From a virus, in IMG/VR virus record IMGVR_UViG_3300042901_002277: 64,000 nt of DNA. The stretch is one strand, 5' to 3'. How positions within the stretch are numbered: the stretch's first letter is position 1; every line of letters starts with the position of its first letter. Shown one piece after another: positions 6,016-33,141 of this stretch. The position numbers were made by a program, and so were the translations under genes. A model generated the notes under the pieces. That model made no database searches and had not been told where the DNA came from. It saw only the letters and a list, made by a program, of their open reading frames with translations.

Positions 6016-7392
6016 TTATGCGCCTGGTGCAGCGTCAAAATCAATCGAAACGAACGCTTCTGGACGCTTAACAGCGAGAGCAAGTCTCTGTTCTGCAAGA
6101 ATCACGATTGCGTTGCGCACGAAGAAGTCTGAGTGCTGTTCCGAAATTCGGATTGAAGCCTGCTCGCGGTCGTACAGCTGTGCAGCAGTACCGAAGGCAC
6201 CGACGAGGCCGGTTCCTTCTGTCATTGCTGGAGTGTCGATAACTGGCATTCTCCAAACGCGTGGCTCGCCACCCATTGCAACCGAAACTGCGATGAGGTA
6301 TTGACCCTGCTCGTCCTTCGTCAACTCGATGTCTTCCCAGTCGTTCGGGTGCAATACAACGCCCGATGGCTCGTAGTAAGCCAAGAACGAGAGTGTTGCA
6401 GCGCGACGAATTGCATCAGCCTTGGTGTCTGCTACTGGAGCAGTTGCACCGTCTGACCATGCGTATGTCTGGATGTTTGGTGTGTTCAAAACGCCCAAGA
6501 GGTTCTCGCCAGCGCCATCGCCGTTAAGAATTTGGTTGTCTTCCAACAAACGAAGGCCGTACATCAATTCGTTGTCGATGATTGAACGCAGCTGTGGCTC
6601 ATCGGCAAGGACGTTGCGGTGTGCAGCTTCCCAGTGTGCCAATGTGCGAACAGGAGCCTGCTCACCAACGAATGAGAATGATGACTGTGGCTTCAACGCA
6701 AATGCGCTGTTTCCACCGTTACGCTCTGCAATTGTTGATGCTGAGTTAACACCAGCAGCGTAGCCGTAACCCTCCTGGATAGGAGTGGTGAAGCCGAGCT
6801 GACGGAAGTACTCAATAACAGCAGCAGTTGTTGTGCGAACTGGGAACAAGTCACGAACACGCTTGGTGCGCATTGGCTGTGTAATCATCGCATCGCGCTG
6901 TACTGAACCAAACGAGCCAAGACGGCTGTTTGCTACGTCAGTTCCAGGGATTGCTGAGTAAACATCCTTTACGTTGTATGAACCAGATGTGAATGAAGCC
7001 TTTACCTGCCATGGTGCAACCATGTTTGCGCCGTTGCGGCCGTTTGCGAGGGTCTTGAATTCTGCTGAGTCCAAGAACATTTCGCCGATTGACTTGATTT
7101 CACGGCTTGAAAGCTGTGCAACTTCTGCACTTGCTGCAGCGAATGAACCTGCAACACTCTCAGCTGGCTGTGAAGCCCAAGAATCAACGCTGTTCATCGT
7201 CTGCATACCGTCGATGAGGCTCTTGATTTCCTTGATGTCTGACATGTTCTTGTCGAACGCTGTCTTCTGCTCAGGGGTGACGACAACTGTGCCGTCTTCT
7301 ACACGGAATGAATCCGCAATGGCCTTATTATCGGCCATCTTTCCACGAAGTGCACCTTGCAGTTCGTTTAATCTTGAATTGTCTTGCGACAT
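6016..7392 (-). CDS. Major capsid protein, HK97 family, with N-terminal delta (scaffold) region
   Basis: VRDLFP, KPQS, VRTLAHW, EDNQILNGDG-GENLLG, HPNDW, FVRNAIVILAEQRLAL-V-RPEAF; RBS AGGAG. Confidence 0.95.
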   Translation of the reverse strand: MSQDNSRLNELQGALRGKMADNKAIADSFRVEDGTVVVTPEQKTAFDKNMSDIKEIKSLIDGMQTMNSVDSWASQPAESVAGSFAAASAEVAQLSSREIKSIGEMFLDSAEFKTLANGRNGANMVAPWQVKASFTSGSYNVKDVYSAIPGTDVANSRLGSFGSVQRDAMITQPMRTKRVRDLFPVRTTTAAVIEYFRQLGFTTPIQEGYGYAAGVNSASTIAERNGGNSAFALKPQSSFSFVGEQAPVRTLAHWEAAHRNVLADEPQLRSIIDNELMYGLRLLEDNQILNGDGAGENLLGVLNTPNIQTYAWSDGATAPVADTKADAIRRAATLSFLAYYEPSGVVLHPNDWEDIELTKDEQGQYLIAVSVAMGGEPRVWRMPVIDTPAMTEGTGLVGAFGTAAQLYDREQASIRISEQHSDFFVRNAIVILAEQRLALAVKRPEAFVSIDFDAAPGA

Positions 7393-18643: not shown

Positions 18644-18659
18644 GGCGGGCCGCCCTTTC

Positions 18660-20254: not shown

Positions 20255-23200
20255 TTAACGTCTACTTTTCGAGTTGTCGTGAAGTCGGAGAAGACTTGTC
20301 CATTGAGTTGGAGACAGGAACCCTTGTGCCTTGAATTGCGAAACAAGGCTTTGAGCGAAATTGCTCCACGTGGCATTTTCTGCCCAGCCCATTATTTCAT
20401 TTTGCATTCTTGGGGTTATGTTCTCTGGGGCTCCGTTGTTCTTGCGTCCAGATGCAAGCTTTTCAACTGCTTCCTGTCCGGTGTTGGATATTCTGCGAGC
20501 AGCTCTTCTTCCGCTACTCAACGAACCACCACTCTTAATTGACTCAACCGTCTCGTCGGTGTCGAACATTGTGTTAAGTCTGTCAACTATTACCTGAACT
20601 TCGTCATCGGAATAACGAAGTGCTTTTCCAGTGTTTTTACTGAATTTTCCTTCTTTTCCTTCTTCGAAAGCCTTGAGTCTTGTTTGGACCTTGGTTGCTC
20701 CAATCACTTCGTCAAGTTCTCTACCTTTTACTCTTTTGCCTCTTCTGGCAAGAGTGTCGGTGATGTTTTTCCAAAGGTCGAATTGTCTAATTGAGTTGTC
20801 AAACTTAACTCCCTCTTCACCGAATACGTCTCCAGCGCTTGGGATTATGCCCTTGTCGACAAGTTGCTCAATAATGGATGTCGGAACTCCTTCTTTTTTC
20901 CATTTTTTAAGCTGTATTGCAGTTGGCTTAATCTCTTCACCGTCAACCTCAAACGTAATGGCTTCTGCTAGGTCGTCATCAGACTCAACTCCGAATGATT
21001 CTGCAAGGGCAGAAACGGGGAAGGCGCTCTTTGAAACTTCTCTAGCAACAAACTCCTCAGGAAGCTCGAAATCTATTGGTGCGTAGAGGGGGTACATCGC
21101 TATACCCTCTTCTTTGTAGTCCTCGTATTCTGCTCTGCTTAGCTGATTACCTCTACGACGGTCATACCAGTAAGGAGCTGCATCGAAGCCCCAAACTGCC
21201 TCAAGCGTCTCGTATGACCTGCCTGGGTCTCTGCCGTTAAAGAATGCCCTGTCGATAAATTCGTAAGCGTCTATTTCAGAAATACCCGCCCCATCTTGGA
21301 ACATCTTTTCAAGTTCTATCTCGCTTACGCCAAGGAATTTTGCACTCTGCTCCCTGTCTAGTGGGTTCCCGTCTTCGTCCCTAAGAATTTGCTCGAGTTT
21401 TTTAGCGTCAAGCATCCACTTACCATCTGGTGACCTGTCGTTATTCCCTGACATTTTGCCAAATTTTATTTTGACTTTGTCCTGAAGGTAATTGCCGACA
21501 CTGTTTCTGGTCTCGCTGTTAGGGAATCTGAGTCTTCCAGAGCTGAGTCGGTCGGTACCAAATTCATCTTTGCTTGGTCCTGGTCGCCTCTTGCTTGGGA
21601 TAGTTGCTGCTCTTTGTCTTACTCCGTCAGCGAATGCCTGTCTATCGGCATCCGCCATTGGGCGACGCTTTGAGCCTTGAGTTCTATTTCTTCTACCAGA
21701 AGAAAACTCTGCTGCATCGCCTTCAACCATATCGAAGTTAGAGAGGTTCCTAGGAGAAAAAACATCATCAGGAGTTCCCGTAATATCTTCTCTGTCTATG
21801 GCCACTCCATTGTCTTCAAAGAACGTCTGAGTGCTAAAAAGGTCGCTCAGCTCGTCTTCAAGACCATTTACGTTCTTGACGTACAAATCTCCAAGCTTTG
21901 ATGCAAACTCTTGTGGAGTCAAATCTCCACGGTCTGCAGAATCGATGAGTTCTTTTATTTCGGCAATTTGCTCTTCGTGGGTAACCGTGGAGAATCTGTC
22001 TTCTACGTCGTCAATTTCCTCGAGTGCATAGATAATGGAGTCTGCGTCAGATTTGATTAGGTCAATAGCTCTTTCGTTGTCCCCATCGGCAAGGTCTATA
22101 TTTCTCTCCATCGCTGATTCGAAATCAACTGGGCCTGGAATGTCCCTTGCCCCCATGCGAGTTGTGGTTCTGAAGGCATCTTCTAGTTCAGAAATGCTGC
22201 CCTTCATGTCCTCAATCTCGTCATTTAGTCCAGAGAGGGTCTCTTCTGTACGTCTCAATTCATCGTGAATTCTGTCTATCGCATCGTCGATGTCCACCAG
22301 CAAATCCATCTCATCTTCTGCAACTGGCGCATATTTGTCAATTTCGAAAATAGACGAACCGGCAGGCATTCTCTTGCCATCAAGCAAGGAACGGAGCAAA
22401 TCATTTCTTAGAGCGACAAGTCGGTCGAGAGATTGAACTGCTTCGGCGTGGTCTTCAAGAGGGATTGTTACGCGGAACTCACCTTTTTTCTCTGTTCCAA
22501 GCCTTCCGCCAAAAGCATTTTGTACAACCATGCTCTCGTATCGAGCGTCGTCCTCAATCTCCGCACGCACTTCATCAAGTGGTCTGATTCTCCCAGAACT
22601 CAATCTGCCTGAAGTGACATTTCTTGTTCTTTGCGCCCTGGCACCAGGGGTGCCACGTGGAACACCTGGTTGTGTCGGGTTGTATGGAGCATCCGCGCCG
22701 TCAACTAGTCCCTCAATCTTGTGGAGACTGTAACTTCTGTACTGACCTTGGTCATCGTCAAGACCTACGACATATATGCCGCCGCCTTTTTTGGCCATCA
22801 TTCCAGTTGGGTAGATGGTTCTTGGCTTTCCGCCGTACGTGAATGAAACGCTTTCACCGTTCCTGCGTATCGAGTCAAAATCGTACTTATCAGCAGGCAC
22901 AGGGGCTAATCGAGAAGCGATGTATCTTGAGTTTGAACCAGCTTCATCCGTTCTCTTAAGAGCATTCGATACTGTGCCAATTGTTTCTACTGGAGTTTCG
23001 TCGTATCTTGAGCGAACGCCAGATGAAAGCCTGCCATTTTCTCTTGCAAGCTCCATCCGAATATCGCTGGCCTCATCTGCCCAGTCTTCTGCGCTCCATT
23101 CAAGACGTGATTCATCAATCTCCGCAATCATCCGCGTGTATTGCTGCCTGTCGTAACGTTCGTTCACAATCCTTATGGAATCTTGATACTCTGCGTCTCT

Positions 23201-26200
23201 GCGGGCTGTTTCTTCGTCAAGCATGCTTGATATTTTTTCAAAATCTGTTTCTTCTTTGAATTTTTTAGCCCATGCTTTACGGGTGTCTTCGTAATCGCTA
23301 ATCCACCTAGCCACATCTTCAGGACTGTCGTATTCATCGCTGACGACTCCAGCCCAATCACGGTCGGAGTCCTCATTGAATTCAAGTCGCAGCAGTGCTG
23401 CACTCCAAAGGCCGTTTTCGCCCTCGGTGATGTCCCATTCATTGTCTGAAGCCCTTGATTCTTCAAAATCTGCACGGCCAACAAAGTAGTGCCTGTCGTT
23501 AATGCGACCACCTCTTGCCATATCAAATCTGGTTAAGAGTTCATCTCCGAATGCGCCCATTTCGTCAGCAAGGGTTCTTATTGTTCCTTCTGGATTCCTT
23601 ACGTATTTTTCACGTTTGCCAGAAGAAAGTGAAGGACCGATGTCGCCATATCCTCCGTCGTTGTTGCCTGGGAGTACTCCTGACTCTGCAACTTTTTTGC
23701 CGAGCTTTGCGCTCATTGATGGAGACTTTGATATTGCGTAATCATGTGCTTTTTGAGCTTCGCCAAAAGCCTTCTTCATTGCATCAGGGTCAGACTTAAG
23801 TTTCTTCAACCAGCCAGCAAGATACTGCGCATGGTCCTCTCTTGGCTCTGGGGTTAGACCATGTGCAGCCATAAAGAATGCAGAAGCTATTTCTGCAACA
23901 AGTTCTTCTTGTGCATACTCAGGGCTTCCAAACTCTCCAAGATGGTCTCTGTTCAGACGTGATGGATGTCCTGTCCAGTGCATTAACTCGTGAGCGAATA
24001 CCGCGTAATAACCTTCTCTGCTCTTGAATGCAGAGAATGGAGGAAGATGTATTTCGTCTGTTGATGGTCTATAGAATGCTCTATCTCCACCAGTATTAAC
24101 AACCGCACCAACTTCTGACAAGGCTTGTTCAAGTTCGGCTACGCGCTCTTCTTCTGGGAGTTCTGGGACTCTGAACTTCTCCTTATCGATTCCGTCAATT
24201 TGGTCGATGTTGAAAACATGTCCAGTCTTAAAGAACACTCCTCCGGACCCGCGAATTTCATTTCCGTCTGCATCCTTCTTTTTAGGAATAATTGTAGGAA
24301 TCAATATCAAGGTGCCTTTTTCGCCCTTGCGTACTGTTCCGCCCTCTTTTTTCCACTGATTAAACCCAGCCCATAGAGGCATGTCGTAACCCATTGCGTC
24401 CTGCTTGAACATCAGCATTACGCTGTTGATTCCGCTGTAAGGACGGTTGTTGTTCGTTACGTTCTTCGGCAGAGATGTCTTGTGCCAAGGGAACTCCCAC
24501 TTGCCATCACCTGATTCTTGAATCTTTTCTATTTGCTCTATCAGGTTTGATTGAACGCTTCTGTAAACCTCGTCCAACTTTCCTGATGAAAGCCTTTGAC
24601 CAACTTCAAGGTCATCAAGAGGACTTACGTAATCTTTTCTTCCAGAAGAGAATGCTCCATCGCGGTCAAGCCAGCGTTTTGCTTCTTTATCCATGCTGCG
24701 CATGAGTTGCATATGCTTTTGCTCGCGAGTTCTAATATCTTCTCTGCTCATTCCAAGGGCTTCTGCCGTTGCGGCAAGAGACTCCCCGCCCATGCGGCGA
24801 AGATAAATTGATTCATTCAGAGCAAGCTCTGCTGCTTCTTCTGCAGCCATGCGTGCCTGGTCTTCACGATAAGCCTCAATGTCATCAAAGTCTGGAGTTT
24901 GCAATGTTCCGCGCTCGCGGGCCATATGGCGCATTTCTGCTTGTCTAACTTCCTCGCGCTTCATACCAAGAGCTTTTGCTGTTTCTGCAAGAGACTCTCC
25001 AGCCATGCGGCGTTCAAATACTTCTCTGTCAGAGATTCGCGATTCCTGTTCTTCGCTTATTCTTCCTGAAGAAAGGTTTCTGTCTTGACGGTTGTCGTAG
25101 AGCCTTTCCAGATAATCCTGGTACATCGCCTTTGCGGCTCTGTTGAAGTTGTCGCTGTAGTTATCGCCTTGTTCTCTGTACTCGTCTAGATATTCTTCCT
25201 GCTTCGGTGAATCACTGCTGTAAAGCCAGTGGTCAAGAATTCTTTCTACTTCATCTTCGCTTGAGCCATCTGAGGAGAGGTCTCTCCGCATCTCCGACAT
25301 CATGTCAGCCCATTCTCTGTCGTCCTTGTCGAGCTCGAGCATCATTTCACGGTCCGGGTGAGCTTCTGGCGTGTACTCCAATAGGCTCGACAAATCCACA
25401 TCATGGTCTTCAAGGGTCTGCCAATCTCCATCCCTTGCTGCGTCTACGAGGAAGCTGGCATAATTGTCTCTAATTGCATCAACATTGTCACCACGTTCGT
25501 AGTCACCTGAATCATCAATGAATTTTCTAAAACCATAATCAAAATCTGGGTCTGAATCTGCACCACCAATTACGCGGCCTATTTCATCTGCAAGATTTTT
25601 GGCTGCCTGTTGCTTGTCGATTTCGTCAAGTTCGTCAAATTTGCGCATCCCTGAAGAGAAGCGTGAAGTCAGCCCACTGTCGCTGAGTTTTTGTTTAAAT
25701 GCTTCTTGGTGCTCTGCGCTTCCGTATTCAGCTCCGGCTGGTTTGTAGTTCTCCGCTACGTATTGCAGCTTGTCAATTGGGGCTGCTTCTTCGTAGATAC
25801 TCTCGAAGTACTCTTGGTCGGATGCATCACTGCGTCGTTCTGGTTTGGCGTAGTCAATTAGCTCTTGTTCGGTTGTTGGACCATAAACTGATTCATATTT
25901 TTCTTCGTCGGTTCCATCTGCGTCTACGAATTCATTAAACACCCAATCGTCCCAGGACTCACCTTCTGGAAGCATGTCATCAAGAATGTCGATAAATGCC
26001 GCATTTCTGTTGAACATCTCTCTTTCGCGGTCATCCATCGGCACTGGTCGGTCGCTGTCTGTTCGTCCAGAAGAAAGACCTGACAATGAGACTTCAGCAT
26101 CACTGTCGTATTTTTCAATCCAGCCAAGTGAGCCAAGGTCTAGTTCCTCTTCGGCTCGAGTTACAGCGACATAAGACAGCCTGAGTTCTTGCTCATCAGG

Positions 26201-29200
26201 GAATACAACGTTGCCCAAATCGTCTTTTTTCGGTCCTCTAAAGTCAGACCAAATCAACACCCTTGGCGACTCTAGGCCCTTAGATGTATGTGCAGTCTGT
26301 ATGTGCACGTACTCATCTCTGTTTTTAGGCAATTTAGCCTTATCCGTGATAACTCTGTCCAAGGCGTCGCGAAGTTCTTCAAACGAATACTTGTCAAGTA
26401 TCTTTCCAAGCATGTTCAGTCGATTGTTATCTTTTTTCTCAATCGCTTTATTGAATTCATCTAGGGTTGTTATACCGTCTAGGTCTTGGCTCTCCTTCGG
26501 CTTGCCAAAATTTTGCTTGCCATCAACATCCGTGAAGTAACCCGTTCCAGTTGCTGAAGTTGTCATGTACTCAATGTTGTCAATGAACGCACTAAGGTCG
26601 TCTTTGAAGTTTTTGCTGCCATAGACAGTTCTACCTTTTTCAAAGCTATCCAGCGTTGCTGCTATTCCTCCGCCGTTAGACCTTGTCAAAATCATTGTTG
26701 GATTACTGATTGAGCCAACTCTTCCATCTACAGGTCGTCCGGACTTGTCTGTTTTTCTACCGTTCATTCGCTCGGTTCTTCCGAGCAAATTCAAGAACCT
26801 ATTTCCCCTATCGGCTATTTCTTTTCCAAATCTGAAGGAGTCGGTAATTGGCATGTCGTATTTTGCATATGCATCAGCAAGGGTTTTCCCGTCAGCCCCA
26901 CGCCACGCGTTAATAGCCTGGTTCGTATCTCCGATGTAAATTCGCTGAATACCATTTGAGTTACGCAATATTCCGGCAAAAACAGGATTCATATCCTGGG
27001 CCTCGTCGACCATTGCCACGTTTACTCCCTCGGAGTCACCAATGTCAGGATTCGTTAAAGCCCACATCTTTGTTACATGCATGTTCGTCATCGGAAGCAT
27101 GCCCTTACCCGAGTCGCTGCCTTTTGGAGCAACTCGCGGAGTATTCATGTCTTCCCACATCTTTTTAGCAAATGGGAGAAGTTCTGCGATAATTTCAGGA
27201 TTTTCTACGGCCATTTTGCCGTTGTACTTTCCCGCGAAGTGCTGTGAGCCAATTTCTGTATCACCACTAATTGCAAAGGCATCTACAGCTTTTGCGACTC
27301 TCTTGTACACATCTACTGCTGTTAATTCTTTACCTTCGTCAACAGTCCCTCTTGTGCCCAGGTAGGTTGCTCTGTCTACGAATCTCATTATTGGTTTTAT
27401 ATATGCGCTGTCTTTGGAGAAACTCTTTGCCGTCATTTCCGGATTGATTGTACGCATTGCGTTGTATGAAACGCCGTCCATCGTCATTACCTTGACATTG
27501 TCCGGCATCCCTCTCTTGCCAGCATCGTCTTTTGCATTTGCGTTGAAGACCAAATACAGAGCTCTAGCTGAAGGTTCTGTATCTTTGAGTCGTTCTGCAA
27601 AATTTATTACCGTAGTAGTTTTTCCGGTTGCTGCAAGAGCTGAAATCTTTACATCATCTCCAGTCATCATTGCGTCTATTGCATTCGACTGCTCCGGAGT
27701 TGGCTTTCTGCCACCAGGTGCATTTGGGTAGTCGTATTCAGGTACGTCTGCCAGGTCAATAATTTCTCTTCTCTTTCCAGAGAATGGAGCGCTTGGTGAT
27801 TTTGATGTAGAAGTTTTTGGAGTACTATCTGGTTTTGCCCCACCGAACATTCTGTCCAATGTCGACCATTGTTTTTCAGAAAGCTTTCCGTTTCTGCGGT
27901 ACTGACGAGCAACGCTTGCGGCGAAAGTCTCTGTTCCGTCAGGCTTGCGAGCCGAGGCTGATTCAGCAGCTTCTATCAATCTTTTTTGTTTAGCTGAATC
28001 AGGAATCGCACCAGAAGAAAGTTTTCCGTCATCAACAGGCTTGGAACGTTTTTCGTTGACAGAGGCAATTTCTCCCTCCATGTGGAACCGAGCCTGCGCC
28101 CAATCTCCCGCATTAACAAGCCTCTCAAATCTTGCTCGCGACTTATCTGTTGGACCCTCTAAGTCAAGGTTTCTCTCTTCTAGTGCGTTGGCGATAATTT
28201 CGTCAAGTTCACCCATGAGGCCCAGGTATGCGCGTGCCCGACCATTAATCGGGCCATCATTGATTTCGTCTCCGTTGACTCGGGATTTTAACGCGCGAAG
28301 GTCCGCTAGTACCGGCTTCCAAGCGGCAAGTCTCTCTGTCTCACTACCAAATTGATTACCAGAAGAAAGTTTGCCTTCTGAATTAAGCTTGCGAAGTTCC
28401 TGAAGGTCTGGTCCTTTTGCTGCACCAGCACCAGCTTTTTTCTTTTTCTTTTTCTTTTTCTTTAGTGTGTCTGCATCCAAAAGACCAATGTCGTTCAGGT
28501 ATTCGTTGAGGGTGGCGATGTCTTCTTTTGCCCAGTCCTGCGTGTCTGGGTACTTAGACTTGACGTCTGCTCTAAGGGCCGATTCAATTCCGTCCCAGTT
28601 GTCTGAGTCATCCCTGCTGTGCGCATCAAGATAGGCGCTAACCGATTTTGCATAGCTTGAATACCAGTTGCTGTATTCTTGCGAAGCTTTTTGCTTCTCG
28701 TTGAACTTTTCAGGACGCTTTCTTACGGAATCGCCATTCCACATAACACGTGCTTGGTTGACTCCGATTTCGCGACCACGGAGATAGTCAGAACTTAAAT
28801 TGTTATCTGCGTTGTAGCGTGGAACTTCTTCCCAGCCAAGACCCTGCTCATCCCATGCTTTAGCGATTGCTTCGTGGTCTACGCGCTTCTGATTTTCTTC
28901 AGCATTTGGGAATTGCTTTTCCATGTCGGCAGAACGGTCTGCATGGCGACGCTCATTACGCTTGCCAGAAGAGAGTTTTTCTGTATCAGCAAGTTCGGCT
29001 CGCTGACTCATCTGCCTCTTTGATGGCTTCGGTGAATTGATGGAGCCAGGACCAGAAGGCGTTGGGTCGGGTTGTTCCCATGGCGTGCCGTCGCCGACCA
29101 TGCTATTTAGGTTTGCGTCTTCGACTGTTCTTGGGTCCCAGCCTGGAGGCGGATTTATACCGGAACCACGAGAGCGACGACCCCTTTTACCGCCAAGATT

Positions 29201-30946
29201 TGGTCGGTCAATTCCTCGGCTTGCAATCGCACGACCGATACGGCGGCCAAGTGCTTTTTCTTCTATTTGCTCAGAAGCTATTTTTTTTTTTAGAAATTCA
29301 TAAGCAGAAGATGCAGCTCTAGTTATAGCGTCCTTCGACTCTTCGCTGAGCGGTGAGTTAATCACGATTCCGTACTCGTTGACGGTTGTGTCAATTCTGT
29401 GGTAATCAAGAACTGGGTCAATTACCGACTTGAATTCAAAGGCGTCTTCAAGATTTACTGGAATGACGTATGACGAGTCTTGAGCCAAGAATGGGTCGAG
29501 ACCCTTTTCCTCAAGCTCTTGCTCCTCTACGCCCCACTCCTCAAGAGTCTTATAAGAGCGACGCTTTCTACGGCGCTTCTTCACCGTGTTACGCAAAACC
29601 CCAAGAATGAATTCTCCAGGGTACTTCGCTTCGATGTCCTCAACCATCTTGATTTCTTCGTCATCAAGAATGTCGTTGTATTCCTTCTTGCCAAATCCGA
29701 CAACAACTCCATCTGGGATGATTGCAAATCGGCACTTGCCCTCGTCTTCGACTTTAAGGCCAAGAATCTTGCACTTGCCTTCGCCTTGGTAGAGGACGCA
29801 ATTTGAGCACTTTACGCCGATGTCTTTTACTTTGTTCTCGGCAGGCGGGTAATATCCAGCCCAAATTCCATCACCATCTTCGTCAAACTTTCCGTACTTG
29901 CGAGCGATACGAACAAGCGATTCGGCAAGCTCGCTCTCTTCTGCACCAAGCTCTGGCTTTTTGTTCTTGTCAGAACCTTCGTACTCAACAGGCGCCAATG
30001 GAACCATGACCATTCCGCCATTAACTGGCTTCATTGCTACAGGCATTGCCATTGCAGGGTTATTTGTCGACGGCTTATTCGGTTTGCCCATAATCCCAGG
30101 CATTGGCGAAGGGCCAGACTGGACTGGCGGTTTTGCCTGTTCTGCGTGAATTAATTCTGGCTTGCCAAACATGTACTCGCTTCCAGTGAAGTGGTAACCA
30201 ATTCTGAATTTTCCTTTTCCTGGCTTCACAAAAACCACAGAGTTCTCAGTCGCTTCAACAACCATGACTGGTCCTGCGGCGCGGCGTGAAAGTTCGGCAA
30301 CCACTCCTGCAAGCTGTGGTCCACTTATTCTTTGTGAAACACCTTCGTCAAACAGTCCGTCTCGTCGTGGCTCTGATGATGGAGCGCTTATTGACATAGG
30401 CATCATCCCATGCATCTTCTCTTCATCGCTCTTTACGGAAATTGTTCCAGTTAGTTGGTTCGCGCCGTGAAGAACAGGGGAAACCTCGTAGAGTTCTACT
30501 TCGTAGAGAACGTTTGCTTGCAGGTTGTCGTCGTACTGCGCTCTAAGAGTCTTGTAGCCGATTGACCACTCTTGCTCTTCGCCAAAGAAAGCCACGTTCG
30601 CAAATGCTTCTTTGCCCTTTTCTGACTGCAGGTTGAATTGAACCTTTGCGTACAATCCGCCAATTCCAGCCATTTTCATCTTCATAGGAAGGCGTGGGTC
30701 GGAAGCAGGGACTTCGTATATTTCAAGGACCTTACCAATTGGGTCGTTCCAGTTGTGGCCCCATACAACACGTGGCTTACGACGCTGAAGGCTCTTAGCA
30801 AATGCACCAGTAGCGCAAATGTCACCAACAGAGTCTTTGTTGCCTATTCCGGAAACAAAACATTCAACAATTCCTTCAAGCTCATCTAGCTTGATGAGAC
30901 CATTCGAGGCCTTGTATTGAATGTTTCCGAAGTTAGAGTTTGGCAT
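20255..30946 (-). CDS. 3563-aa polyprotein: HK97-type prohead protease fused to multiple cargo domains
   Basis: Single open frame; RBS AAGGAG; domains listed separately. Confidence 0.9.
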   Translation of the reverse strand: MPNSNFGNIQYKASNGLIKLDELEGIVECFVSGIGNKDSVGDICATGAFAKSLQRRKPRVVWGHNWNDPIGKVLEIYEVPASDPRLPMKMKMAGIGGLYAKVQFNLQSEKGKEAFANVAFFGEEQEWSIGYKTLRAQYDDNLQANVLYEVELYEVSPVLHGANQLTGTISVKSDEEKMHGMMPMSISAPSSEPRRDGLFDEGVSQRISGPQLAGVVAELSRRAAGPVMVVEATENSVVFVKPGKGKFRIGYHFTGSEYMFGKPELIHAEQAKPPVQSGPSPMPGIMGKPNKPSTNNPAMAMPVAMKPVNGGMVMVPLAPVEYEGSDKNKKPELGAEESELAESLVRIARKYGKFDEDGDGIWAGYYPPAENKVKDIGVKCSNCVLYQGEGKCKILGLKVEDEGKCRFAIIPDGVVVGFGKKEYNDILDDEEIKMVEDIEAKYPGEFILGVLRNTVKKRRRKRRSYKTLEEWGVEEQELEEKGLDPFLAQDSSYVIPVNLEDAFEFKSVIDPVLDYHRIDTTVNEYGIVINSPLSEESKDAITRAASSAYEFLKKKIASEQIEEKALGRRIGRAIASRGIDRPNLGGKRGRRSRGSGINPPPGWDPRTVEDANLNSMVGDGTPWEQPDPTPSGPGSINSPKPSKRQMSQRAELADTEKLSSGKRNERRHADRSADMEKQFPNAEENQKRVDHEAIAKAWDEQGLGWEEVPRYNADNNLSSDYLRGREIGVNQARVMWNGDSVRKRPEKFNEKQKASQEYSNWYSSYAKSVSAYLDAHSRDDSDNWDGIESALRADVKSKYPDTQDWAKEDIATLNEYLNDIGLLDADTLKKKKKKKKKAGAGAAKGPDLQELRKLNSEGKLSSGNQFGSETERLAAWKPVLADLRALKSRVNGDEINDGPINGRARAYLGLMGELDEIIANALEERNLDLEGPTDKSRARFERLVNAGDWAQARFHMEGEIASVNEKRSKPVDDGKLSSGAIPDSAKQKRLIEAAESASARKPDGTETFAASVARQYRRNGKLSEKQWSTLDRMFGGAKPDSTPKTSTSKSPSAPFSGKRREIIDLADVPEYDYPNAPGGRKPTPEQSNAIDAMMTGDDVKISALAATGKTTTVINFAERLKDTEPSARALYLVFNANAKDDAGKRGMPDNVKVMTMDGVSYNAMRTINPEMTAKSFSKDSAYIKPIMRFVDRATYLGTRGTVDEGKELTAVDVYKRVAKAVDAFAISGDTEIGSQHFAGKYNGKMAVENPEIIAELLPFAKKMWEDMNTPRVAPKGSDSGKGMLPMTNMHVTKMWALTNPDIGDSEGVNVAMVDEAQDMNPVFAGILRNSNGIQRIYIGDTNQAINAWRGADGKTLADAYAKYDMPITDSFRFGKEIADRGNRFLNLLGRTERMNGRKTDKSGRPVDGRVGSISNPTMILTRSNGGGIAATLDSFEKGRTVYGSKNFKDDLSAFIDNIEYMTTSATGTGYFTDVDGKQNFGKPKESQDLDGITTLDEFNKAIEKKDNNRLNMLGKILDKYSFEELRDALDRVITDKAKLPKNRDEYVHIQTAHTSKGLESPRVLIWSDFRGPKKDDLGNVVFPDEQELRLSYVAVTRAEEELDLGSLGWIEKYDSDAEVSLSGLSSGRTDSDRPVPMDDREREMFNRNAAFIDILDDMLPEGESWDDWVFNEFVDADGTDEEKYESVYGPTTEQELIDYAKPERRSDASDQEYFESIYEEAAPIDKLQYVAENYKPAGAEYGSAEHQEAFKQKLSDSGLTSRFSSGMRKFDELDEIDKQQAAKNLADEIGRVIGGADSDPDFDYGFRKFIDDSGDYERGDNVDAIRDNYASFLVDAARDGDWQTLEDHDVDLSSLLEYTPEAHPDREMMLELDKDDREWADMMSEMRRDLSSDGSSEDEVERILDHWLYSSDSPKQEEYLDEYREQGDNYSDNFNRAAKAMYQDYLERLYDNRQDRNLSSGRISEEQESRISDREVFERRMAGESLAETAKALGMKREEVRQAEMRHMARERGTLQTPDFDDIEAYREDQARMAAEEAAELALNESIYLRRMGGESLAATAEALGMSREDIRTREQKHMQLMRSMDKEAKRWLDRDGAFSSGRKDYVSPLDDLEVGQRLSSGKLDEVYRSVQSNLIEQIEKIQESGDGKWEFPWHKTSLPKNVTNNNRPYSGINSVMLMFKQDAMGYDMPLWAGFNQWKKEGGTVRKGEKGTLILIPTIIPKKKDADGNEIRGSGGVFFKTGHVFNIDQIDGIDKEKFRVPELPEEERVAELEQALSEVGAVVNTGGDRAFYRPSTDEIHLPPFSAFKSREGYYAVFAHELMHWTGHPSRLNRDHLGEFGSPEYAQEELVAEIASAFFMAAHGLTPEPREDHAQYLAGWLKKLKSDPDAMKKAFGEAQKAHDYAISKSPSMSAKLGKKVAESGVLPGNNDGGYGDIGPSLSSGKREKYVRNPEGTIRTLADEMGAFGDELLTRFDMARGGRINDRHYFVGRADFEESRASDNEWDITEGENGLWSAALLRLEFNEDSDRDWAGVVSDEYDSPEDVARWISDYEDTRKAWAKKFKEETDFEKISSMLDEETARRDAEYQDSIRIVNERYDRQQYTRMIAEIDESRLEWSAEDWADEASDIRMELARENGRLSSGVRSRYDETPVETIGTVSNALKRTDEAGSNSRYIASRLAPVPADKYDFDSIRRNGESVSFTYGGKPRTIYPTGMMAKKGGGIYVVGLDDDQGQYRSYSLHKIEGLVDGADAPYNPTQPGVPRGTPGARAQRTRNVTSGRLSSGRIRPLDEVRAEIEDDARYESMVVQNAFGGRLGTEKKGEFRVTIPLEDHAEAVQSLDRLVALRNDLLRSLLDGKRMPAGSSIFEIDKYAPVAEDEMDLLVDIDDAIDRIHDELRRTEETLSGLNDEIEDMKGSISELEDAFRTTTRMGARDIPGPVDFESAMERNIDLADGDNERAIDLIKSDADSIIYALEEIDDVEDRFSTVTHEEQIAEIKELIDSADRGDLTPQEFASKLGDLYVKNVNGLEDELSDLFSTQTFFEDNGVAIDREDITGTPDDVFSPRNLSNFDMVEGDAAEFSSGRRNRTQGSKRRPMADADRQAFADGVRQRAATIPSKRRPGPSKDEFGTDRLSSGRLRFPNSETRNSVGNYLQDKVKIKFGKMSGNNDRSPDGKWMLDAKKLEQILRDEDGNPLDREQSAKFLGVSEIELEKMFQDGAGISEIDAYEFIDRAFFNGRDPGRSYETLEAVWGFDAAPYWYDRRRGNQLSRAEYEDYKEEGIAMYPLYAPIDFELPEEFVAREVSKSAFPVSALAESFGVESDDDLAEAITFEVDGEEIKPTAIQLKKWKKEGVPTSIIEQLVDKGIIPSAGDVFGEEGVKFDNSIRQFDLWKNITDTLARRGKRVKGRELDEVIGATKVQTRLKAFEEGKEGKFSKNTGKALRYSDDEVQVIVDRLNTMFDTDETVESIKSGGSLSSGRRAARRISNTGQEAVEKLASGRKNNGAPENITPRMQNEIMGWAENATWSNFAQSLVSQFKAQGFLSPTQWTSLLRLHDNSKSRR
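22715..22870 (-). other. WYL-like domain within polyprotein
   Basis: VSFTYGGKPRTIYP...GIYVVGLD...YRSYSLHKI matches WYL pattern Y..R.V.P...YL.A.D...R.FRL.RI. Confidence 0.65.
23720..24575 (-). other. ArdC-like module (ssDNA-binding ArdC-N/DUF1738 + zincin metallopeptidase) within polyprotein
   Basis: PW...N...RPYSGIN, FNQW...VRKGEKG, VFNIDQ, AFYRPSTDEIHLP, AHELMHWTGHPSRLNR, YAQEELVAE, HAQYL-GW. Confidence 0.93.
24710..25040 (-). other. Two sigma70 region-4-like HTH domains within polyprotein
   Basis: RRMAGESLAETAKALGMKREEVRQAEMRHM and RRMGGESLAATAEALGMSREDIRTREQKHM. Confidence 0.7.
26130..27705 (-). other. SF1 (UvrD/Rep-like) helicase domain within polyprotein
   Basis: PTPEQ, ATGKTTT, VDEAQD, GDTNQAINAWRGA, SFRFG, TAHTSKGLE, YVAVTRA. 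Confidence 0.92.
30430..30946 (-). other. Prohead (maturation) protease domain, HK97 gp4/S78 type
   Basis: DSVGD...GAF..SL, VVWGHNW-PIG (His), EWSIGY (Ser), LYEVSPVLHGAN. Confidence 0.92.
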
Positions 30947-31065: not shown

Positions 31066-33141
31066 CTAAATGAACTGGCCAAACTTCCACGCTCTTCGCG
31101 ATTCGTCTTCTGCAATTTCAAATCTTTGCTTAGCCATGAGGTTCGCATACATGCTTACAAGCGCACCACGGAAAGATGCTGCTCTCTCCTCTTCGCCCAT
31201 GACAGCCAATGAGTTAAACATCATTGAGGAAACCTGGTTAAAGTTTTCAAGATTCATACTCTTTATGCGCGACATTTGCGAATCAATCTGAGCGTTGAGG
31301 TCCGACTGATTTATACTCTTTTCCGACTTCTGACCGTACCCATCGTTATACATATTGAACGAGTCCTGGATAATTGCAGAAATGACAGGCCTTATATCCT
31401 CGTCCATCTGCTTGTCCCATACCTCGGGGGAGAGTATGGAGTCGATTTCTAGGGTCCCAGCAAACAGTGACTTCTTTGCCTTTGAGCCGCTTGCCTTTTC
31501 AAGAACCACTCTTTGTTGTCTCTCAATAACCCGTTCGATACTTCTGTTGAGTATCTCGTTCCACCTAGTCAGTGACTCTGTGCTTTTTACCTGTAGCTCA
31601 CTCTCGATTGACTTATACATCATCTCTCCAGATGGCACAGATGCCGCTCCAGCCGGTATCGGCTCGGCGGTGGTAGCAACAGCAGCAAGCGCCTCTGGTG
31701 GGATTGTGCTTTGTGCCAGCTGGTCTGGGGCTGGGGTTTCGACTTGAGCCAATGCTCCCTGCATGGTGTTCGGGTCAAGCGGTGGTTGTCCATCCACCCC
31801 AGGAACTGGGGCGTCTGGTGCTGGTGCGCCTGGCATAGGCTCTCCCGGCATTGGCGCTCCCGGCATTGGTGGTCCACCCATTTCTGCCGATGGAGCAGTT
31901 TCCATCTTTTTCTTTGTATTCGCGATTGGAATAAGGTTAGGGTTCATGAGCAGAGAGTCCGCAAGGTCTGCTTCAACTTCTTTTCTTCCAGAACCCATTC
32001 TGTACTCGTTATTGCTGATAAGGCCAGTTTGAAATTCCTGCATCAGGTATCTTTCACGCTCTTGCTTGTAGAGCTGAAGAATTGGAACTTCGCTTGTATC
32101 GAAGTCGATGTAGTACTCATCGTCTAGTTCGTCTAGAGAACGCGCTAGTGGTTCAAGGTGTGGAAGCATGGTTTCCATCCAGAACACGCGGATTTCTTCG
32201 CTTGCGTTACTGAATGTTCTTCCTGCAGCGTTTCCGATTACAGACTCTGGGACGCCGAATGATGCAAGAATTTCTTCTTTTGTAATCTGTCTCATTTGTG
32301 CGTAAGCAACGTCTCTCGGCGAAGCAGATGTGTCTACATAGTCAACACCATCGTCAGCAGAGATAACCGTCGTATGACCCGCTCTTCCGATGTTCCCACG
32401 GAATCTGCTCTTTAATTCTTCCTTGTCATCGTCTTCGATTTCTCCACGCAAAACGAGCAGGCCACCAGGTCTTCCGTCGTTGAGTAGATAGTTTCTGTTG
32501 TATAGCTTTGCAAGATTTTCAATTTCAATTGCAACGCCAGCCGACTCAAGAGGGGTGAGTGACAAATATGGGTCAAGAGGGTGAGGTCTTCTAATCCAGC
32601 AAACATCCTCTGGTTTCATTATGATTTTTTGACCGTAAGGCATTTGCACTTCGTACCCAGACACAAACTTCTTTGCATCTGGGATTGGTGCTGTTGATTG
32701 AGGAGGCAAAAGGTTGAGACCAATTATTCTTCCGTCTCTTCCACGAACCTTTTCAATGAATACACCGCGTGTACCAAGCAAAAGTTGAGCGGACATTCTG
32801 TATCTGAAGATAAAAGAGTTTTCACCAACGTTTGATTTGGTGTTCAGAACTTCAAGCAAAGAGTTGTTTTTTGCTCTATTCCCAACAAGAATTTCTCCAT
32901 CTGGAGAGTTGTCCTTGCGAAGAATAATTGGTAGTCGTGCTTGATTTCCTGCAATCGCATCGATGCATCGTGCAACCCAAGTGACCTTCTGCATTCCTTC
33001 GCGGTATGCACGCTCGACATCCCATGAGTCTCTATACGGTCTTCCTGCATAGCTTGGGTTCTGCGCTATAGGCGCGCCAGGGCCTAGTTCCTTGGATTGT
33101 GCGTTTGAGAGCGACTTATTGCTCGATTGATTCCATGCCAT
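31066..33141 (-). CDS. Portal protein, HK97 family, with C-terminal extension
   Basis: WVARCIDAIA--ARLP, LTPLESA, NDGRPGGLL, EILASFGVPESVIG, TFSNA, GLISNNEYR. Confidence 0.92.
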   Translation of the reverse strand: MAWNQSSNKSLSNAQSKELGPGAPIAQNPSYAGRPYRDSWDVERAYREGMQKVTWVARCIDAIAGNQARLPIILRKDNSPDGEILVGNRAKNNSLLEVLNTKSNVGENSFIFRYRMSAQLLLGTRGVFIEKVRGRDGRIIGLNLLPPQSTAPIPDAKKFVSGYEVQMPYGQKIIMKPEDVCWIRRPHPLDPYLSLTPLESAGVAIEIENLAKLYNRNYLLNDGRPGGLLVLRGEIEDDDKEELKSRFRGNIGRAGHTTVISADDGVDYVDTSASPRDVAYAQMRQITKEEILASFGVPESVIGNAAGRTFSNASEEIRVFWMETMLPHLEPLARSLDELDDEYYIDFDTSEVPILQLYKQERERYLMQEFQTGLISNNEYRMGSGRKEVEADLADSLLMNPNLIPIANTKKKMETAPSAEMGGPPMPGAPMPGEPMPGAPAPDAPVPGVDGQPPLDPNTMQGALAQVETPAPDQLAQSTIPPEALAAVATTAEPIPAGAASVPSGEMMYKSIESELQVKSTESLTRWNEILNRSIERVIERQQRVVLEKASGSKAKKSLFAGTLEIDSILSPEVWDKQMDEDIRPVISAIIQDSFNMYNDGYGQKSEKSINQSDLNAQIDSQMSRIKSMNLENFNQVSSMMFNSLAVMGEEERAASFRGALVSMYANLMAKQRFEIAEDESRRAWKFGQFI

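What the first reader, a model, noticed from the sequence alone, without database searches (positions are those of the whole stretch)
29271..29300. A11 slippery run at the protease/cargo junction, with stops in both shifted frames
Seen: the minus strand reads TTT CTA AAA AAA AAA ATA GCT TCT GAG. This A11 is the longest homopolymer I noticed in the window and sits at codon ~552-556, just before EEKALGRR and the SSG-punctuated region. Losing one A gives AAA TAG at once; gaining one gives AAT AGC TTC TGA. Known: A/T runs of 9 or more promote RNA polymerase slippage and A AAA AAA supports -1 ribosomal shifts. Inference: this sets the ratio of a ~555-aa protease/scaffold form to the full cargo-bearing form, limiting cargo copies per head.
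Basis: partly seen in the sequence, partly recalled or inferred. Interest (0 to 1): 0.8.

Follow-up and report, generated by a model that had tools for sequence, protein, structure and literature searches.

The report
Conserved slippery A-run in phage polyprotein
An 11-A run inside a giant phage head gene is conserved across relatives and probably makes the cell's machinery slip, giving both a short 61-kDa protease form and the full 399-kDa protease-plus-injected-cargo form from one gene.

Summary
An A11 run (window 29281-29291, minus strand) codes L552-K-K-K-I556 of a 3563-aa ORF. It is the longest homopolymer in the 160-kb genome. One A fewer gives TAG at once; one more gives TGA three codons later.

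The ORF is an N-terminal HK97-type prohead protease fused to a polyvalent cargo (UvrD helicase, sigma-r4, ArdC-N plus MPTase, WYL), placed next to the portal gene.

In about 167 related metagenomic loci the run is kept as pure A10/A11 down to 46% protein identity. This holds although these genes mostly prefer AAG, and the window's own K9 run is coded AAG/AAA alternately. The chance of this under lineage codon usage, over 14 lineages, is about 10^-20.

Other lineages have the same joint out of frame:
- A7 plus an immediate stop, with the cargo in the -1 frame (about 20 loci).
- A_AAA_AAG.
- A_AAT_TTT.
- A10 to A13 runs one base off.

Gene callers then give a 460-550-aa protease gene and a separate roughly 3000-aa cargo gene. 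A few lineages lack any run.

Best reading: a programmed slippage joint, like the dnaX alternatives, that yields short and long forms. No expression data could be obtained. An earlier scan note reports a similar frameshift layout in a 428-kb phage.

The parts
29281..29291 (-). A11 homopolymer (T11 on the + strand): the slippery run. Third base of L552 (CTA), K553-K555 (AAA AAA AAA), first base of I556 (ATA). It contains two tandem in-phase A_AAA_AAA heptamers.
   Evidence: conserved as A10/A11 in homologues
29278..29280 (-). TAG read directly after the run when the message has one A fewer (or two more); it ends a 555-556-aa product.
   Evidence: an equivalent TAA/TAG made by an xTA Leu codon is present in most lineages
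29271..29273 (-). TGA read three codons after the run when the message has one A more (or after a -1 ribosomal shift); it ends a 558-aa product ...KKKNSF.
   Evidence: an equivalent NNT GAN giving TGA is present in the other lineages
29282..30946 (-). Codons 1-555: the part shared by the short and long forms (61.3 kDa). Prohead protease plus a roughly 380-aa extension that includes a Cys-rich motif and a folded alpha/beta unit at about 490-559, whose last helix ends at KKK.
30419..30871 (-). Peptidase_S78 (HK97-type prohead serine protease) domain, aa 26-176.
   Evidence: Pfam 36.6 bits against a cut-off of 21; PHROG head maturation protease, 7e-26
20255..29281 (-). Codons 556-3563 plus stop: the cargo part. 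A conserved linker module (EEKALGRR...DPTPxGPGSIxNPK) is followed by 14 [L/F]SSG-separated modules, including UvrD-type helicase, Sigma70_r4, ArdC-N plus MPTase-PolyVal, and WYL.
20255..30946 (-). Whole 3563-aa ORF (398.7 kDa): the protease-led polyvalent polyprotein.
31066..33141 (-). Portal gene directly upstream (context: head module).
   Evidence: PHROG portal, 5e-58
6016..7392 (-). HK97-fold major capsid protein (context). The Phage_capsid domain covers aa 167-451, leaving a 166-aa N-terminal extension.

Best explanation
The A11 run is a selected slippage joint between the carrier part (prohead protease plus its roughly 380-aa extension) and the roughly 3000-aa cargo part of one head-module gene.

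In this phage the genomic frame is continuous, so faithful expression gives the 399-kDa protease-cargo fusion. On a run of 11 A (T11 in the template) bacterial RNA polymerase is expected to add or drop A residues in a large share of transcripts. Ribosomes may also slide or shift -1 on the tandem A_AAA_AAA heptamers. Every message or ribosome that leaves the frame meets a stop within 0-3 codons and releases a 555-558-aa (about 61 kDa) protease form without cargo. One gene thus gives a fixed mixture of cargo-free and cargo-bearing protease.

Both forms presumably enter the procapsid through the shared N-terminal part. The cargo is then cut into modules (candidate sites: the 14 [L/F]SSG motifs) and leaves with the DNA.

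Shown here:
- The anatomy of the run and its stops.
- Nucleotide-level conservation of the run.
- Codon choices that keep both off-frame stops.
- Relatives in which the same joint is out of frame at slippery sequences.

Inferred, not shown:
- That slippage happens in this phage, and at which level.
- The short:long ratio.
- That the purpose is to set cargo dosage.
- The packaging and injection of the cargo.
For: 1. Run and stops are as described.

2. Synonymous conservation.
- 60 in-frame loci carry xxA AAA AAA AAA(A) at the homologous site, across a clade whose members are only 46-57% identical in protein.
- In a 15-lineage codon alignment, 192 columns have an invariant degenerate amino acid and only 7 have an invariant codon.
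- Of 19 invariant Lys columns, only K553 and K554 are all-AAA. The others are mixed or AAG-dominated.
- The upstream ORFs prefer AAG (for example 12:32 and 7:33). The preceding codon is always A-ending even where the residue changes (CTA, TTA, ATA, GTA).
- The product of per-lineage probabilities over 14 lineages is 10^-20.6.

3. Internal control. The window's own K9 run (aa 829-837) is coded AAG AAA AAG AAA AAG AAA AAG AAA AAA.

4. In 12 of the 14 representative in-frame lineages both shifted frames stop within 5-6 and 7-9 codons counted from the codon in which the run begins (two need 8-9 in the one-A-fewer frame). The stops are made by rare xTA Leu codons and by NNT before GAN. Background in the window ORF is 2-5% of positions.

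5. The same joint is out of frame in relatives.
- About 20 loci have GGT GGT TCA AAA AAA TAA (or TAC TGA). The cargo is open for more than 2000 codons in the -1 frame, there is no conserved start codon, and peptide conservation begins right after the run.
- L061 and L092 are 96.5% identical and both have A9, reading A_AAA_AAG. L097 has the same.
- L163 and L164 have A10 and need one more A. L160 (A13), L161 (A11) and L162 (A12) need one fewer.
- L165-167, from three samples, have GC A_AAT_TTT CCC in the correct phase.
- Called genes in these contigs are a 534-608-aa Peptidase_S78 protein followed by a 2713-3352-aa ArdC-N/MPTase/UvrD protein.
- Dozens of database proteins end in LKKK or GG[SLQ]KK plus 0-6 residues.

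6. The run was regained at a new place. L032, L085 and L161 carry an A10/A11 about 30 codons downstream, in a subclade that lost the original segment.

7. Within the stretches held, no frame break was seen in these ORFs other than at the joint (open frames run to the locus ends). The one exception is P0002, broken at the second K run.

8. The run lies at a domain boundary: the end of a helix at 535-559 (local pLDDT about 80), followed by a disordered stretch. In L159 a stand-alone protease ORF ends at the same point.

9. Precedent. In dnaX, homologous genes use transcriptional slippage on A9 with stops in both non-zero frames, or -1 frameshifting, or the reversed layout (PMC5009743).
Against:
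- Some close relatives (L022, L023, L026, L028, L080; 81-89% identity) and others (L030, L031, L062, L098) have an in-frame fusion with the 18-aa segment deleted and no run. The joint is therefore dispensable or replaceable.
- No significant RNA structure flanks the run in the window (z = -0.85).
- Some out-of-frame states rest on a single contig (L160, L161, L162; L059 against L041 at 99.9% identity). These could be assembly errors or plain mutations.
- In L076, L139 and L157 the cargo ORF may start on its own ATG with no slippery site.
- The in-frame layout would leave a third or more of the products full length, far more than a low-efficiency A7 shift would give in the split lineages. One common 'ratio' is therefore not evident.
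Confidence: 0.62

Rival explanations
1. The two-product outcome is the same, but the shift is made mainly by the ribosome: -1 frameshifting on the in-phase A_AAA_AAA heptamers, or sliding on the poly(A) track of consecutive AAA lysine codons. RNA polymerase slippage plays a minor part.
For: - The run starts at the third codon position in every lineage (A7, A9, A10, A11), which is the phase a -1 X_XXY_YYZ shift needs.
- Stable split relatives carry classical heptamers: A_AAA_AAA plus stop, A_AAA_AAG, and A_AAT_TTT.
- A small hairpin lies 7 nt after the A7 in the split clade, with G-C, G-U and A-U variation at one pair.
Against: - KKK coded AAA AAA AAA already contains a heptamer. Yet the preceding codon is also kept A-ending, so length of at least 10 seems to be selected, which matches the 9-10-bp RNA-DNA hybrid (PMC5009743).
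- L160, L161 and L162 need one base fewer, which a -1 ribosomal shift cannot supply.
- There is no stimulatory structure in the window.
- The hairpin in the split clade is broken at 4 pairs in L077 and L078, and its covariation term is about zero.
Confidence: 0.2
2. The run is a DNA-level mutational hot spot or phase-variation switch. Replication slippage makes heritable subpopulations with or without the cargo, and the out-of-frame contigs are such variants. There is no programmed slippage during expression.
For: - L059 and L041 are 99.9% identical and differ by one A.
- Runs one base off in either direction occur in single contigs: L160 (A13), L161 (A11), L162 (A12).
- P0002, a 95%-identical relative, is broken at the other lysine run.
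Against: - Seven contigs of 98-99% identity all have A11.
- The split A7 clade and the pair L061/L092 keep the out-of-frame state through divergence while the cargo frame stays open for 1200 to more than 2000 codons. The cargo must therefore be expressed from the shifted frame.
- A mere hot spot would be removed by AAG substitutions, which the genes otherwise prefer.
Confidence: 0.1
3. There is no function in the nucleotides. A conserved LKKK peptide, codon bias and shared ancestry give the run by chance, and the nearby off-frame stops are incidental.
For: - K-K-K is conserved as a peptide.
- Some lineages (L049, L089, L093, L094) do prefer AAA at 0.74-0.84.
- The segment is dispensable in several lineages.
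Against: - The combined codon-usage probability is 10^-20.6 over 14 lineages.
- Other invariant Lys columns are mixed or AAG.
- The residue before KKK varies (L, I, V) but its codon always ends in A.
- The K9 run in the same ORF avoids long A runs.
- The joint coincides with real frame changes in relatives.
Confidence: 0.04

Closest known systems
dnaX tau/gamma expression (Thermus thermophilus A9 transcriptional slippage; E. coli A_AAA_AAG -1 frameshift; 'reversed' layout in some bacteria), as reviewed in Atkins et al. 2016, PMC5009743
   Same: - A long form is encoded in one ORF.
- A homopolymeric A run has stop codons close by in both non-zero frames, so any slip gives a defined short form.
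- Homologous genes in other lineages reach the same two products by -1 frameshifting, or with the long form requiring the shift.
   Different: - The gene is a phage head gene, not a replicase subunit.
- The run is 10-11 A, not 9.
- The long arm is a roughly 3000-aa multi-enzyme cargo.
- Far more layouts coexist in one family.
- Nothing has been measured here.
Programmed frameshifts in tailed-phage structural genes (lambda tail assembly chaperone G/GT; T7 capsid 10A/10B).
   Same: Two N-terminally identical structural proteins are made in a set ratio from one locus by a slippery sequence in a late operon. The split A7-plus-stop relatives have exactly this 'shift to extend' layout.
   Different: - In the window the shift truncates instead of extending.
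- The site joins a prohead protease to injected cargo, a junction I did not find described in two literature searches.
Polyvalent proteins of phages and conjugative elements (Iyer et al. 2017, PMC5512222)
   Same: A giant multidomain protein with MPTase-PolyVal, ArdC-N and helicase domains, encoded among virion late genes and predicted to be packaged, processed and injected.
   Different: [quoted passage not shown] Here the S78 prohead protease leads the protein.
- No recoding site is mentioned in that paper: 'frameshift' occurs 0 times.
Earlier scan note e1-5374093: 'conserved frameshift port adding cargo domains' in a 428-kb phage
   Same: A head-module gene ends in an A run plus a stop, and a start-less cargo ORF lies in the -1 frame. 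This is the layout of the split relatives found here.
   Different: - It is another genome and another carrier gene.
- It is an unchecked AI note, used only as a pointer.
- The window itself has the in-frame version.

Membership tests
Programmed transcriptional slippage site (Thermus dnaX type) | Homopolymeric A or T run of about 9 or more inside a coding region | tested here: met
   A11 at 29281-29291
Programmed transcriptional slippage site (Thermus dnaX type) | Stop codons close by in both non-zero frames, so that slipped messages give a defined short product | tested here: met
   TAG at once and TGA after 3 codons. The same holds in the other in-frame lineages.
Programmed transcriptional slippage site (Thermus dnaX type) | Run conserved at nucleotide level among diverged homologues | tested here: met
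Programmed transcriptional slippage site (Thermus dnaX type) | Heterogeneous run length in mRNA but not in DNA; two protein products observed | not testable with these tools
-1 programmed ribosomal frameshift | X_XXY_YYZ heptamer in the zero-frame phase | tested here: met
   (CT)A_AAA_AAA and (AA)A_AAA_AAA, run phase 2. Relatives have A_AAA_AAA plus stop, A_AAA_AAG and A_AAT_TTT.
-1 programmed ribosomal frameshift | Stimulatory RNA structure 5-9 nt downstream (or an upstream SD-like element at about 10 nt) | tested here: not met
   The window fold has z = -0.85. In the split clade a 9-bp hairpin lies 7 nt downstream, but its covariation is weak and it is broken in L077 and L078. The conserved GGTGGT lies only 2-3 nt upstream.
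-1 programmed ribosomal frameshift | A long overlapping -1 ORF that the shift extends into | tested here: not met
   In the window the -1 frame stops after 3 codons. The feature is met only in relatives.
Polyvalent protein (Iyer et al. 2017) | Many effector domains in one polypeptide, including MPTase-PolyVal and typically ArdC-N | tested here: met
   MPTase-PolyVal 9e-43, ArdcN 1.5e-24, UvrD, Sigma70_r4 and WYL
Polyvalent protein (Iyer et al. 2017) | Encoded among virion or late genes | tested here: met
   Portal lies directly upstream, TerL is divergent, and the capsid protein is in the same direction
Polyvalent protein (Iyer et al. 2017) | Assemblin-like peptidase, when present, at the C terminus | tested here: not met
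   Peptidase_S78 is at aa 26-176, the N terminus; the paper's statement is
Polyvalent protein (Iyer et al. 2017) | Packaged in the virion and delivered with the DNA | not testable with these tools
   No virion proteome is available
Caudovirus prohead serine protease (Pfam Peptidase_S78, HK97 gp4 type) | Match above the curated cut-off; conserved His/Ser core | tested here: met
   36.6 bits against 21; PHROG 7e-26. H64, S128 and S156 are among the invariant columns in 25 sequences. Catalytic roles were not assigned.
Phase-variable contingency locus (DNA-level slipped-strand mispairing) | Run length differs among otherwise near-identical genomes | tested here: inconclusive
   Seven contigs of 98-99% identity all have A11. 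The one pair at 99.9% identity, L059 and L041, differs A9 against A10. No read-level data are available.

The most novel reading that the evidence does not exclude
A whole family of uncultured phages, known here only from metagenomic contigs, shares an evolutionarily mobile 'recoding joint'. It couples the prohead protease, acting as a capsid-entry carrier, to a giant injected polyvalent cargo. Lineages switch freely among several states: in-frame A10/A11 (slip to truncate), A7 plus stop, A_AAA_AAG or A_AAT_TTT (shift to extend), runs one base too long, loss, and regain at a nearby site. Because slippage at the joint keeps both products available in every state, single-base changes act as a dosage dial for how much anti-defence cargo is loaded per capsid.
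Probability: 0.5. Interest if true: 0.82.

Novelty: new variant of a known kind. Interest (0 to 1): 0.72.

Why it matters
How phages load measured amounts of large internal or injected proteins into the capsid is poorly understood outside T4, P1, N4 and phiKZ. If this reading holds, three things follow.

- A single slippery run decides what share of the prohead-protease molecules drag a 340-kDa set of anti-defence enzymes (ArdC, helicase, sigma-like and WYL modules) into the head.
- It would be a second natural case, after dnaX, in which homologous genes reach the same two products by transcriptional slippage in some lineages and ribosomal frameshifting in others. It has many more intermediate states, which makes it a good system for studying how recoding sites evolve.
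- For annotation, the 'protease' and 'giant hypothetical protein' genes that callers report separately in many metagenomic phages are probably one expression unit. In-frame versions should in turn be expected to make a short product.

Tried and rejected
- An exact-pattern scan of metagenome contigs for run-length variants of the window's own allele found nothing.
- The GenBank phage collection has no DNA match. Protein matches cover only the protease domain, aa 4-227, at no more than 42.5% identity, mostly Gordonia and Arthrobacter phages. No cultured relative carrying the joint was found.
- An AlphaFold2 model of aa 1-660 from a 25-sequence alignment was poor (mean pLDDT 49.7). I used only the local boundary (helix 535-559, then disorder) and ran no fold search, because a low-confidence model gives meaningless matches.
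- An RNA structure around the run in the window is not better than shuffles.
- The conserved GGTGGT before the A7 of the split clade was considered as an internal Shine-Dalgarno stimulator. It lies only 2-3 nt upstream, too close for -1 stimulation, and it also codes the conserved Gly-Gly, so I make no claim for it.
- Re-initiation at a start codon after the A7 was considered. The first start codons lie from +12 to +114 nt, are not conserved, and peptide conservation begins directly after the run. It is not excluded for L076, L139 and L157.
- Literature searches for a prohead-protease/cargo frameshift found nothing on the subject.
- Calling residues 180-555 a 'scaffold' was rejected as unproven: no family matches them, and the capsid protein has its own N-terminal extension.

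Full report
**1. The observation**

The minus strand at 29300-29271 reads ...TTT CTA AAA AAA AAA ATA GCT TCT GA. The run of 11 A is at window 29281-29291. It lies in a 3563-codon ORF, 20255..30946(-), and spans the last base of L552, K553-K555 and the first base of I556.

It is the longest homopolymer in the window, where the next is 8. It is also the longest in the whole single-contig genome of 160,449 bp, where the next are one A10 and three A9. Base composition predicts 0.02-0.05 such runs in 64 kb.

Simulated run lengths give these products:

| Run length | Product |
|---|---|
| A9 | 557 aa |
| A10 | 555 aa, ...FLKKK* |
| A11 (genomic) | 3563 aa, 398.7 kDa |
| A12 | 558 aa, ...KKKNSF* |
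| A13 | 556 aa |
| A14 | 3564 aa |

The first 555 residues weigh 61.3 kDa. Only 1.8% of positions in this ORF have stops this close in both shifted frames. Seven independent contigs of 98-99% identity have the same A11.

**2. The gene**

Pfam finds the following:
- Peptidase_S78, the HK97-type prohead protease, at aa 26-176.
- UvrD-type helicase pieces at about 1086-1602.
- Sigma70_r4.
- ArdC-N at 2127-2245.
- MPTase-PolyVal at 2271-2393.
- WYL at 2696-2747.

Fourteen [L/F]SSG motifs separate the modules, and the first is at aa 658. The portal gene lies directly upstream, the large terminase is divergent, and an HK97-fold capsid gene lies further down the same strand.

This is a polyvalent protein in the sense of Iyer et al. 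2017 (PMC5512222), but led by the prohead protease. That paper reports assemblin-like peptidases only at the C termini of such proteins.

Residues 180-555 match no family. A poor AlphaFold2 model (mean pLDDT 49.7) still shows a locally confident alpha/beta unit at about 490-559. Its last helix (535-559) ends at KKK, and a disordered stretch follows. In a 25-sequence alignment the KKK lies in an 18-residue variable segment between two conserved blocks. The run therefore sits at a domain boundary.

**3. Relatives**

The GenBank phage collection holds only distant protease matches. IMG/VR and metagenome scans gave 159 loci, and look-ups of called proteins gave eight more. A tree of the N-terminal 470 residues separates two deep clades.

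**4. The clade that holds the window**

Sixty loci have the joint in frame with xxA AAA AAA AAA followed by a non-A base (A10) or an A (A11). The proteins are only 46-57% identical to the window and the flanking codons differ.

- The codon before KKK is CTA, TTA, ATA or GTA. The residue changes, but the final A does not.
- The same genes mostly prefer AAG. Upstream ORFs have AAA:AAG of 12:32, 10:35 and 7:33.
- In a codon alignment of 15 representatives, 192 columns have an invariant degenerate residue and only 7 an invariant codon. Of 19 invariant lysine columns, only K553 and K554 are all-AAA, one is all-AAG and the rest are mixed.
- With each lineage's own codon usage, the probability of the pure run multiplies to 10^-20.6 over 14 lineages. 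Even a strong discount for shared ancestry leaves this far beyond chance.
- As an internal control, the window's K9 run (aa 829-837) is coded AAG AAA AAG AAA AAG AAA AAG AAA AAA.

In 12 of the 14 representative lineages both shifted frames end within 5-6 and 7-9 codons counted from the codon in which the run begins (two need 8-9 in the one-A-fewer frame). These stops depend on synonymous choices: a rare xTA leucine codon gives TAA or TAG, and an NNT codon before GAN gives TGA.

**5. The same joint out of frame**

- *A7 plus stop.* About 20 loci of the other deep clade read GGT GGT TCA AAA AAA TAA (or TAC TGA, TTC TGA, or TAC AAG CGC CCT TAG). The protease ORF ends there at 460-486 codons. The -1 frame opens just upstream and runs for more than 2000 codons to the end of the locus. 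The first start codon in that frame varies from +12 to +114 nt. The peptide in the -1 frame is conserved from the first codon after the run.
- *A7 in frame.* Sister lineages (L116, L118, L119; L102-104) keep GGT GGT TCA (or CCA) AAA AAA but follow it with GGT, so the homologous cargo is in frame. The -1 frame then stops at once with AGG TGA.
- *A9.* L061 and L092 (96.5% identical over 3 kb) and L097 have A9, reading A_AAA_AAG, and need one more A or a -1 shift.
- *A10.* L163 and L164 (two samples) have A10 where their kin have A11.
- *Runs one base too long.* L160 (A13), L161 (A11 at a second site) and L162 (A12) need one A fewer.
- *No homopolymer.* L165-167 (three samples) read GC A_AAT_TTT CCC, a canonical X_XXY_YYZ heptamer in the right phase, with the cargo open for more than 1000 codons in the -1 frame.
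- *T runs.* In-frame relatives of that lineage have T7 or T8 at the same spot: CCT TTT TTT CAA and GCT TTT TTT TCA.
- *Gene calls.* In these contigs gene callers report a 534-608-aa Peptidase_S78 gene followed by a 2713-3352-aa gene with ArdC-N, MPTase-PolyVal and UvrD. A database search finds dozens of protein clusters that end LKKK or GG[SLQ]KK plus 0-6 residues.
- *Stand-alone protease.* L159 has a protease ORF that ends at the same point with no cargo behind it.

Within the stretches held, no frame break was seen in these ORFs other than at the joint. The one exception is P0002, a 95%-identical relative broken at the second lysine run.

**6. Losses and a regain**

L022, L023, L026, L028 and L080 (81-89% identical to the window), and also L030, L031, L062 and L098, have lost the 18-residue segment and are fused in frame without a run. 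In the L030 subclade, L032, L085 and L161 carry a new A10/A11 (AGA or GGA AAA AAA AAA) about 30 codons further on. The joint is therefore not indispensable, but it has arisen again in the same linker.

**7. Mechanism**

The pattern matches what the Atkins et al. review describes for dnaX (PMC5009743). Thermus makes tau and gamma about 1:1 by polymerase slippage on an A9 run with stops in both non-zero frames. E. coli uses a -1 shift at A_AAA_AAG. Some bacteria have the reversed layout, with the stop directly after the shift site.

For the window I favour RNA polymerase slippage as the main source of the short form, for three reasons:
- What is conserved is a length of at least 10, the size of the RNA-DNA hybrid. 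The extra A before KKK is not needed for a heptamer.
- Natural variants deviate in both directions.
- No stimulatory structure is present.

The constant phase of the run and the classical heptamers of the split relatives leave room for a ribosomal contribution. In the A7, A_AAA_AAG and A_AAT_TTT lineages the ribosome is probably the main actor. A weak hairpin 7 nt after the A7 has little covariation support.

The purpose, loading only some protease molecules with cargo, is inference. The in-frame and split layouts would be expected to give quite different ratios. The lineages without any run must obtain a cargo-free protease, if they need one, by proteolysis.

**8. Rivals**

- A purely DNA-level switch fits L059 against L041 and the single-contig variants. 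It does not explain stable split lineages whose cargo frames remain intact.
- Chance or peptide constraint is excluded by the codon statistics.

**9. Novelty**

Slippage and frameshift joints are well known, and so are polyvalent proteins. I did not find this joint, or any recoding site between a prohead protease and a cargo protein, in the papers searched. The theme may therefore be wider; I did not test that note.

I rate this as a new variant of a known kind. It is well supported by comparison and untested by experiment.

Noticed in passing
window 28436-28462 (- strand), aa 829-837: A K9 run is coded by a hexanucleotide repeat, (AAGAAA)x4 followed by AAA. A 95%-identical relative (P0002, 856 aa, a cluster of 15 sequences) is frame-shifted inside this run and ends about 20 residues later, near the second LSSG motif. 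This may be a second unstable or slippery spot, or an assembly error.
   Followed up: partly
L030:4350, L031:9841, L032:8977: An in-frame A9 (CGT AAA AAA AAA GG) lies directly after an SSGR motif deep in the cargo part. It is conserved in three loci of one subclade and may be another truncation point. It is not present in the window.
   Followed up: no
L064:7377-7399 and the aligned positions in L065-L078 (alignment A1, columns 24-46): A small hairpin, GCCCGACT...AGTCAGGGC, starts 7 nt after the A7 heptamer of the split clade. One pair varies among G-C, G-U and A-U, but four pairs are broken in L077 and L078. It is a possible frameshift stimulator.
   Followed up: partly
L076:7330-7480; L139, L157: In this lineage the protease ORF ends (...KSLK*) with no homopolymer or recognisable heptamer. 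The cargo frame (-1) contains an ATG about 60 nt downstream, so carrier and cargo may be fully separate genes here.
   Followed up: partly
window 20255-28975 (- strand): 14 [L/F]SSG motifs, the first at aa 658: The count of 14 exact [L/F]SSG motifs, mostly followed by K or R, was confirmed. The first one after the joint is conserved as LSSG in many lineages of alignment A3. These are likely maturation cut sites, so the long form would release an N-terminal piece about 100 residues longer than the slipped short form.
   Followed up: partly
window 6016-7392 (- strand): In the major capsid protein the Phage_capsid domain covers only aa 167-451. The 166-aa N-terminal extension may be a delta-domain-like internal scaffold, which weakens the label 'scaffold' for aa 180-555 of the protease protein.
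   Followed up: no
genome C1 74493-74501, 113059-113067, 122767-122776, 122935-122943 (outside the window): Four other A9/A10 runs exist in the 160-kb genome. Their coding context was not examined.
   Followed up: no
window about 837-1101 (genome C1 62900-63164) and genome C1 76078-76151: ARAGORN finds four phage tRNA genes: Thr-TGT, Ser-TGA, Arg-TCT and Met-CAT. There is no tRNA-Lys, so decoding of the AAA run depends on the host's lysine tRNA.
   Followed up: no
window 12089-18703 (- strand): A second giant ORF (2204 aa) in the head module has no Pfam or PHROG match. Between it and the polyprotein lies a 485-aa ORF (18660-20117) with only a weak PepSY hit.
   Followed up: no
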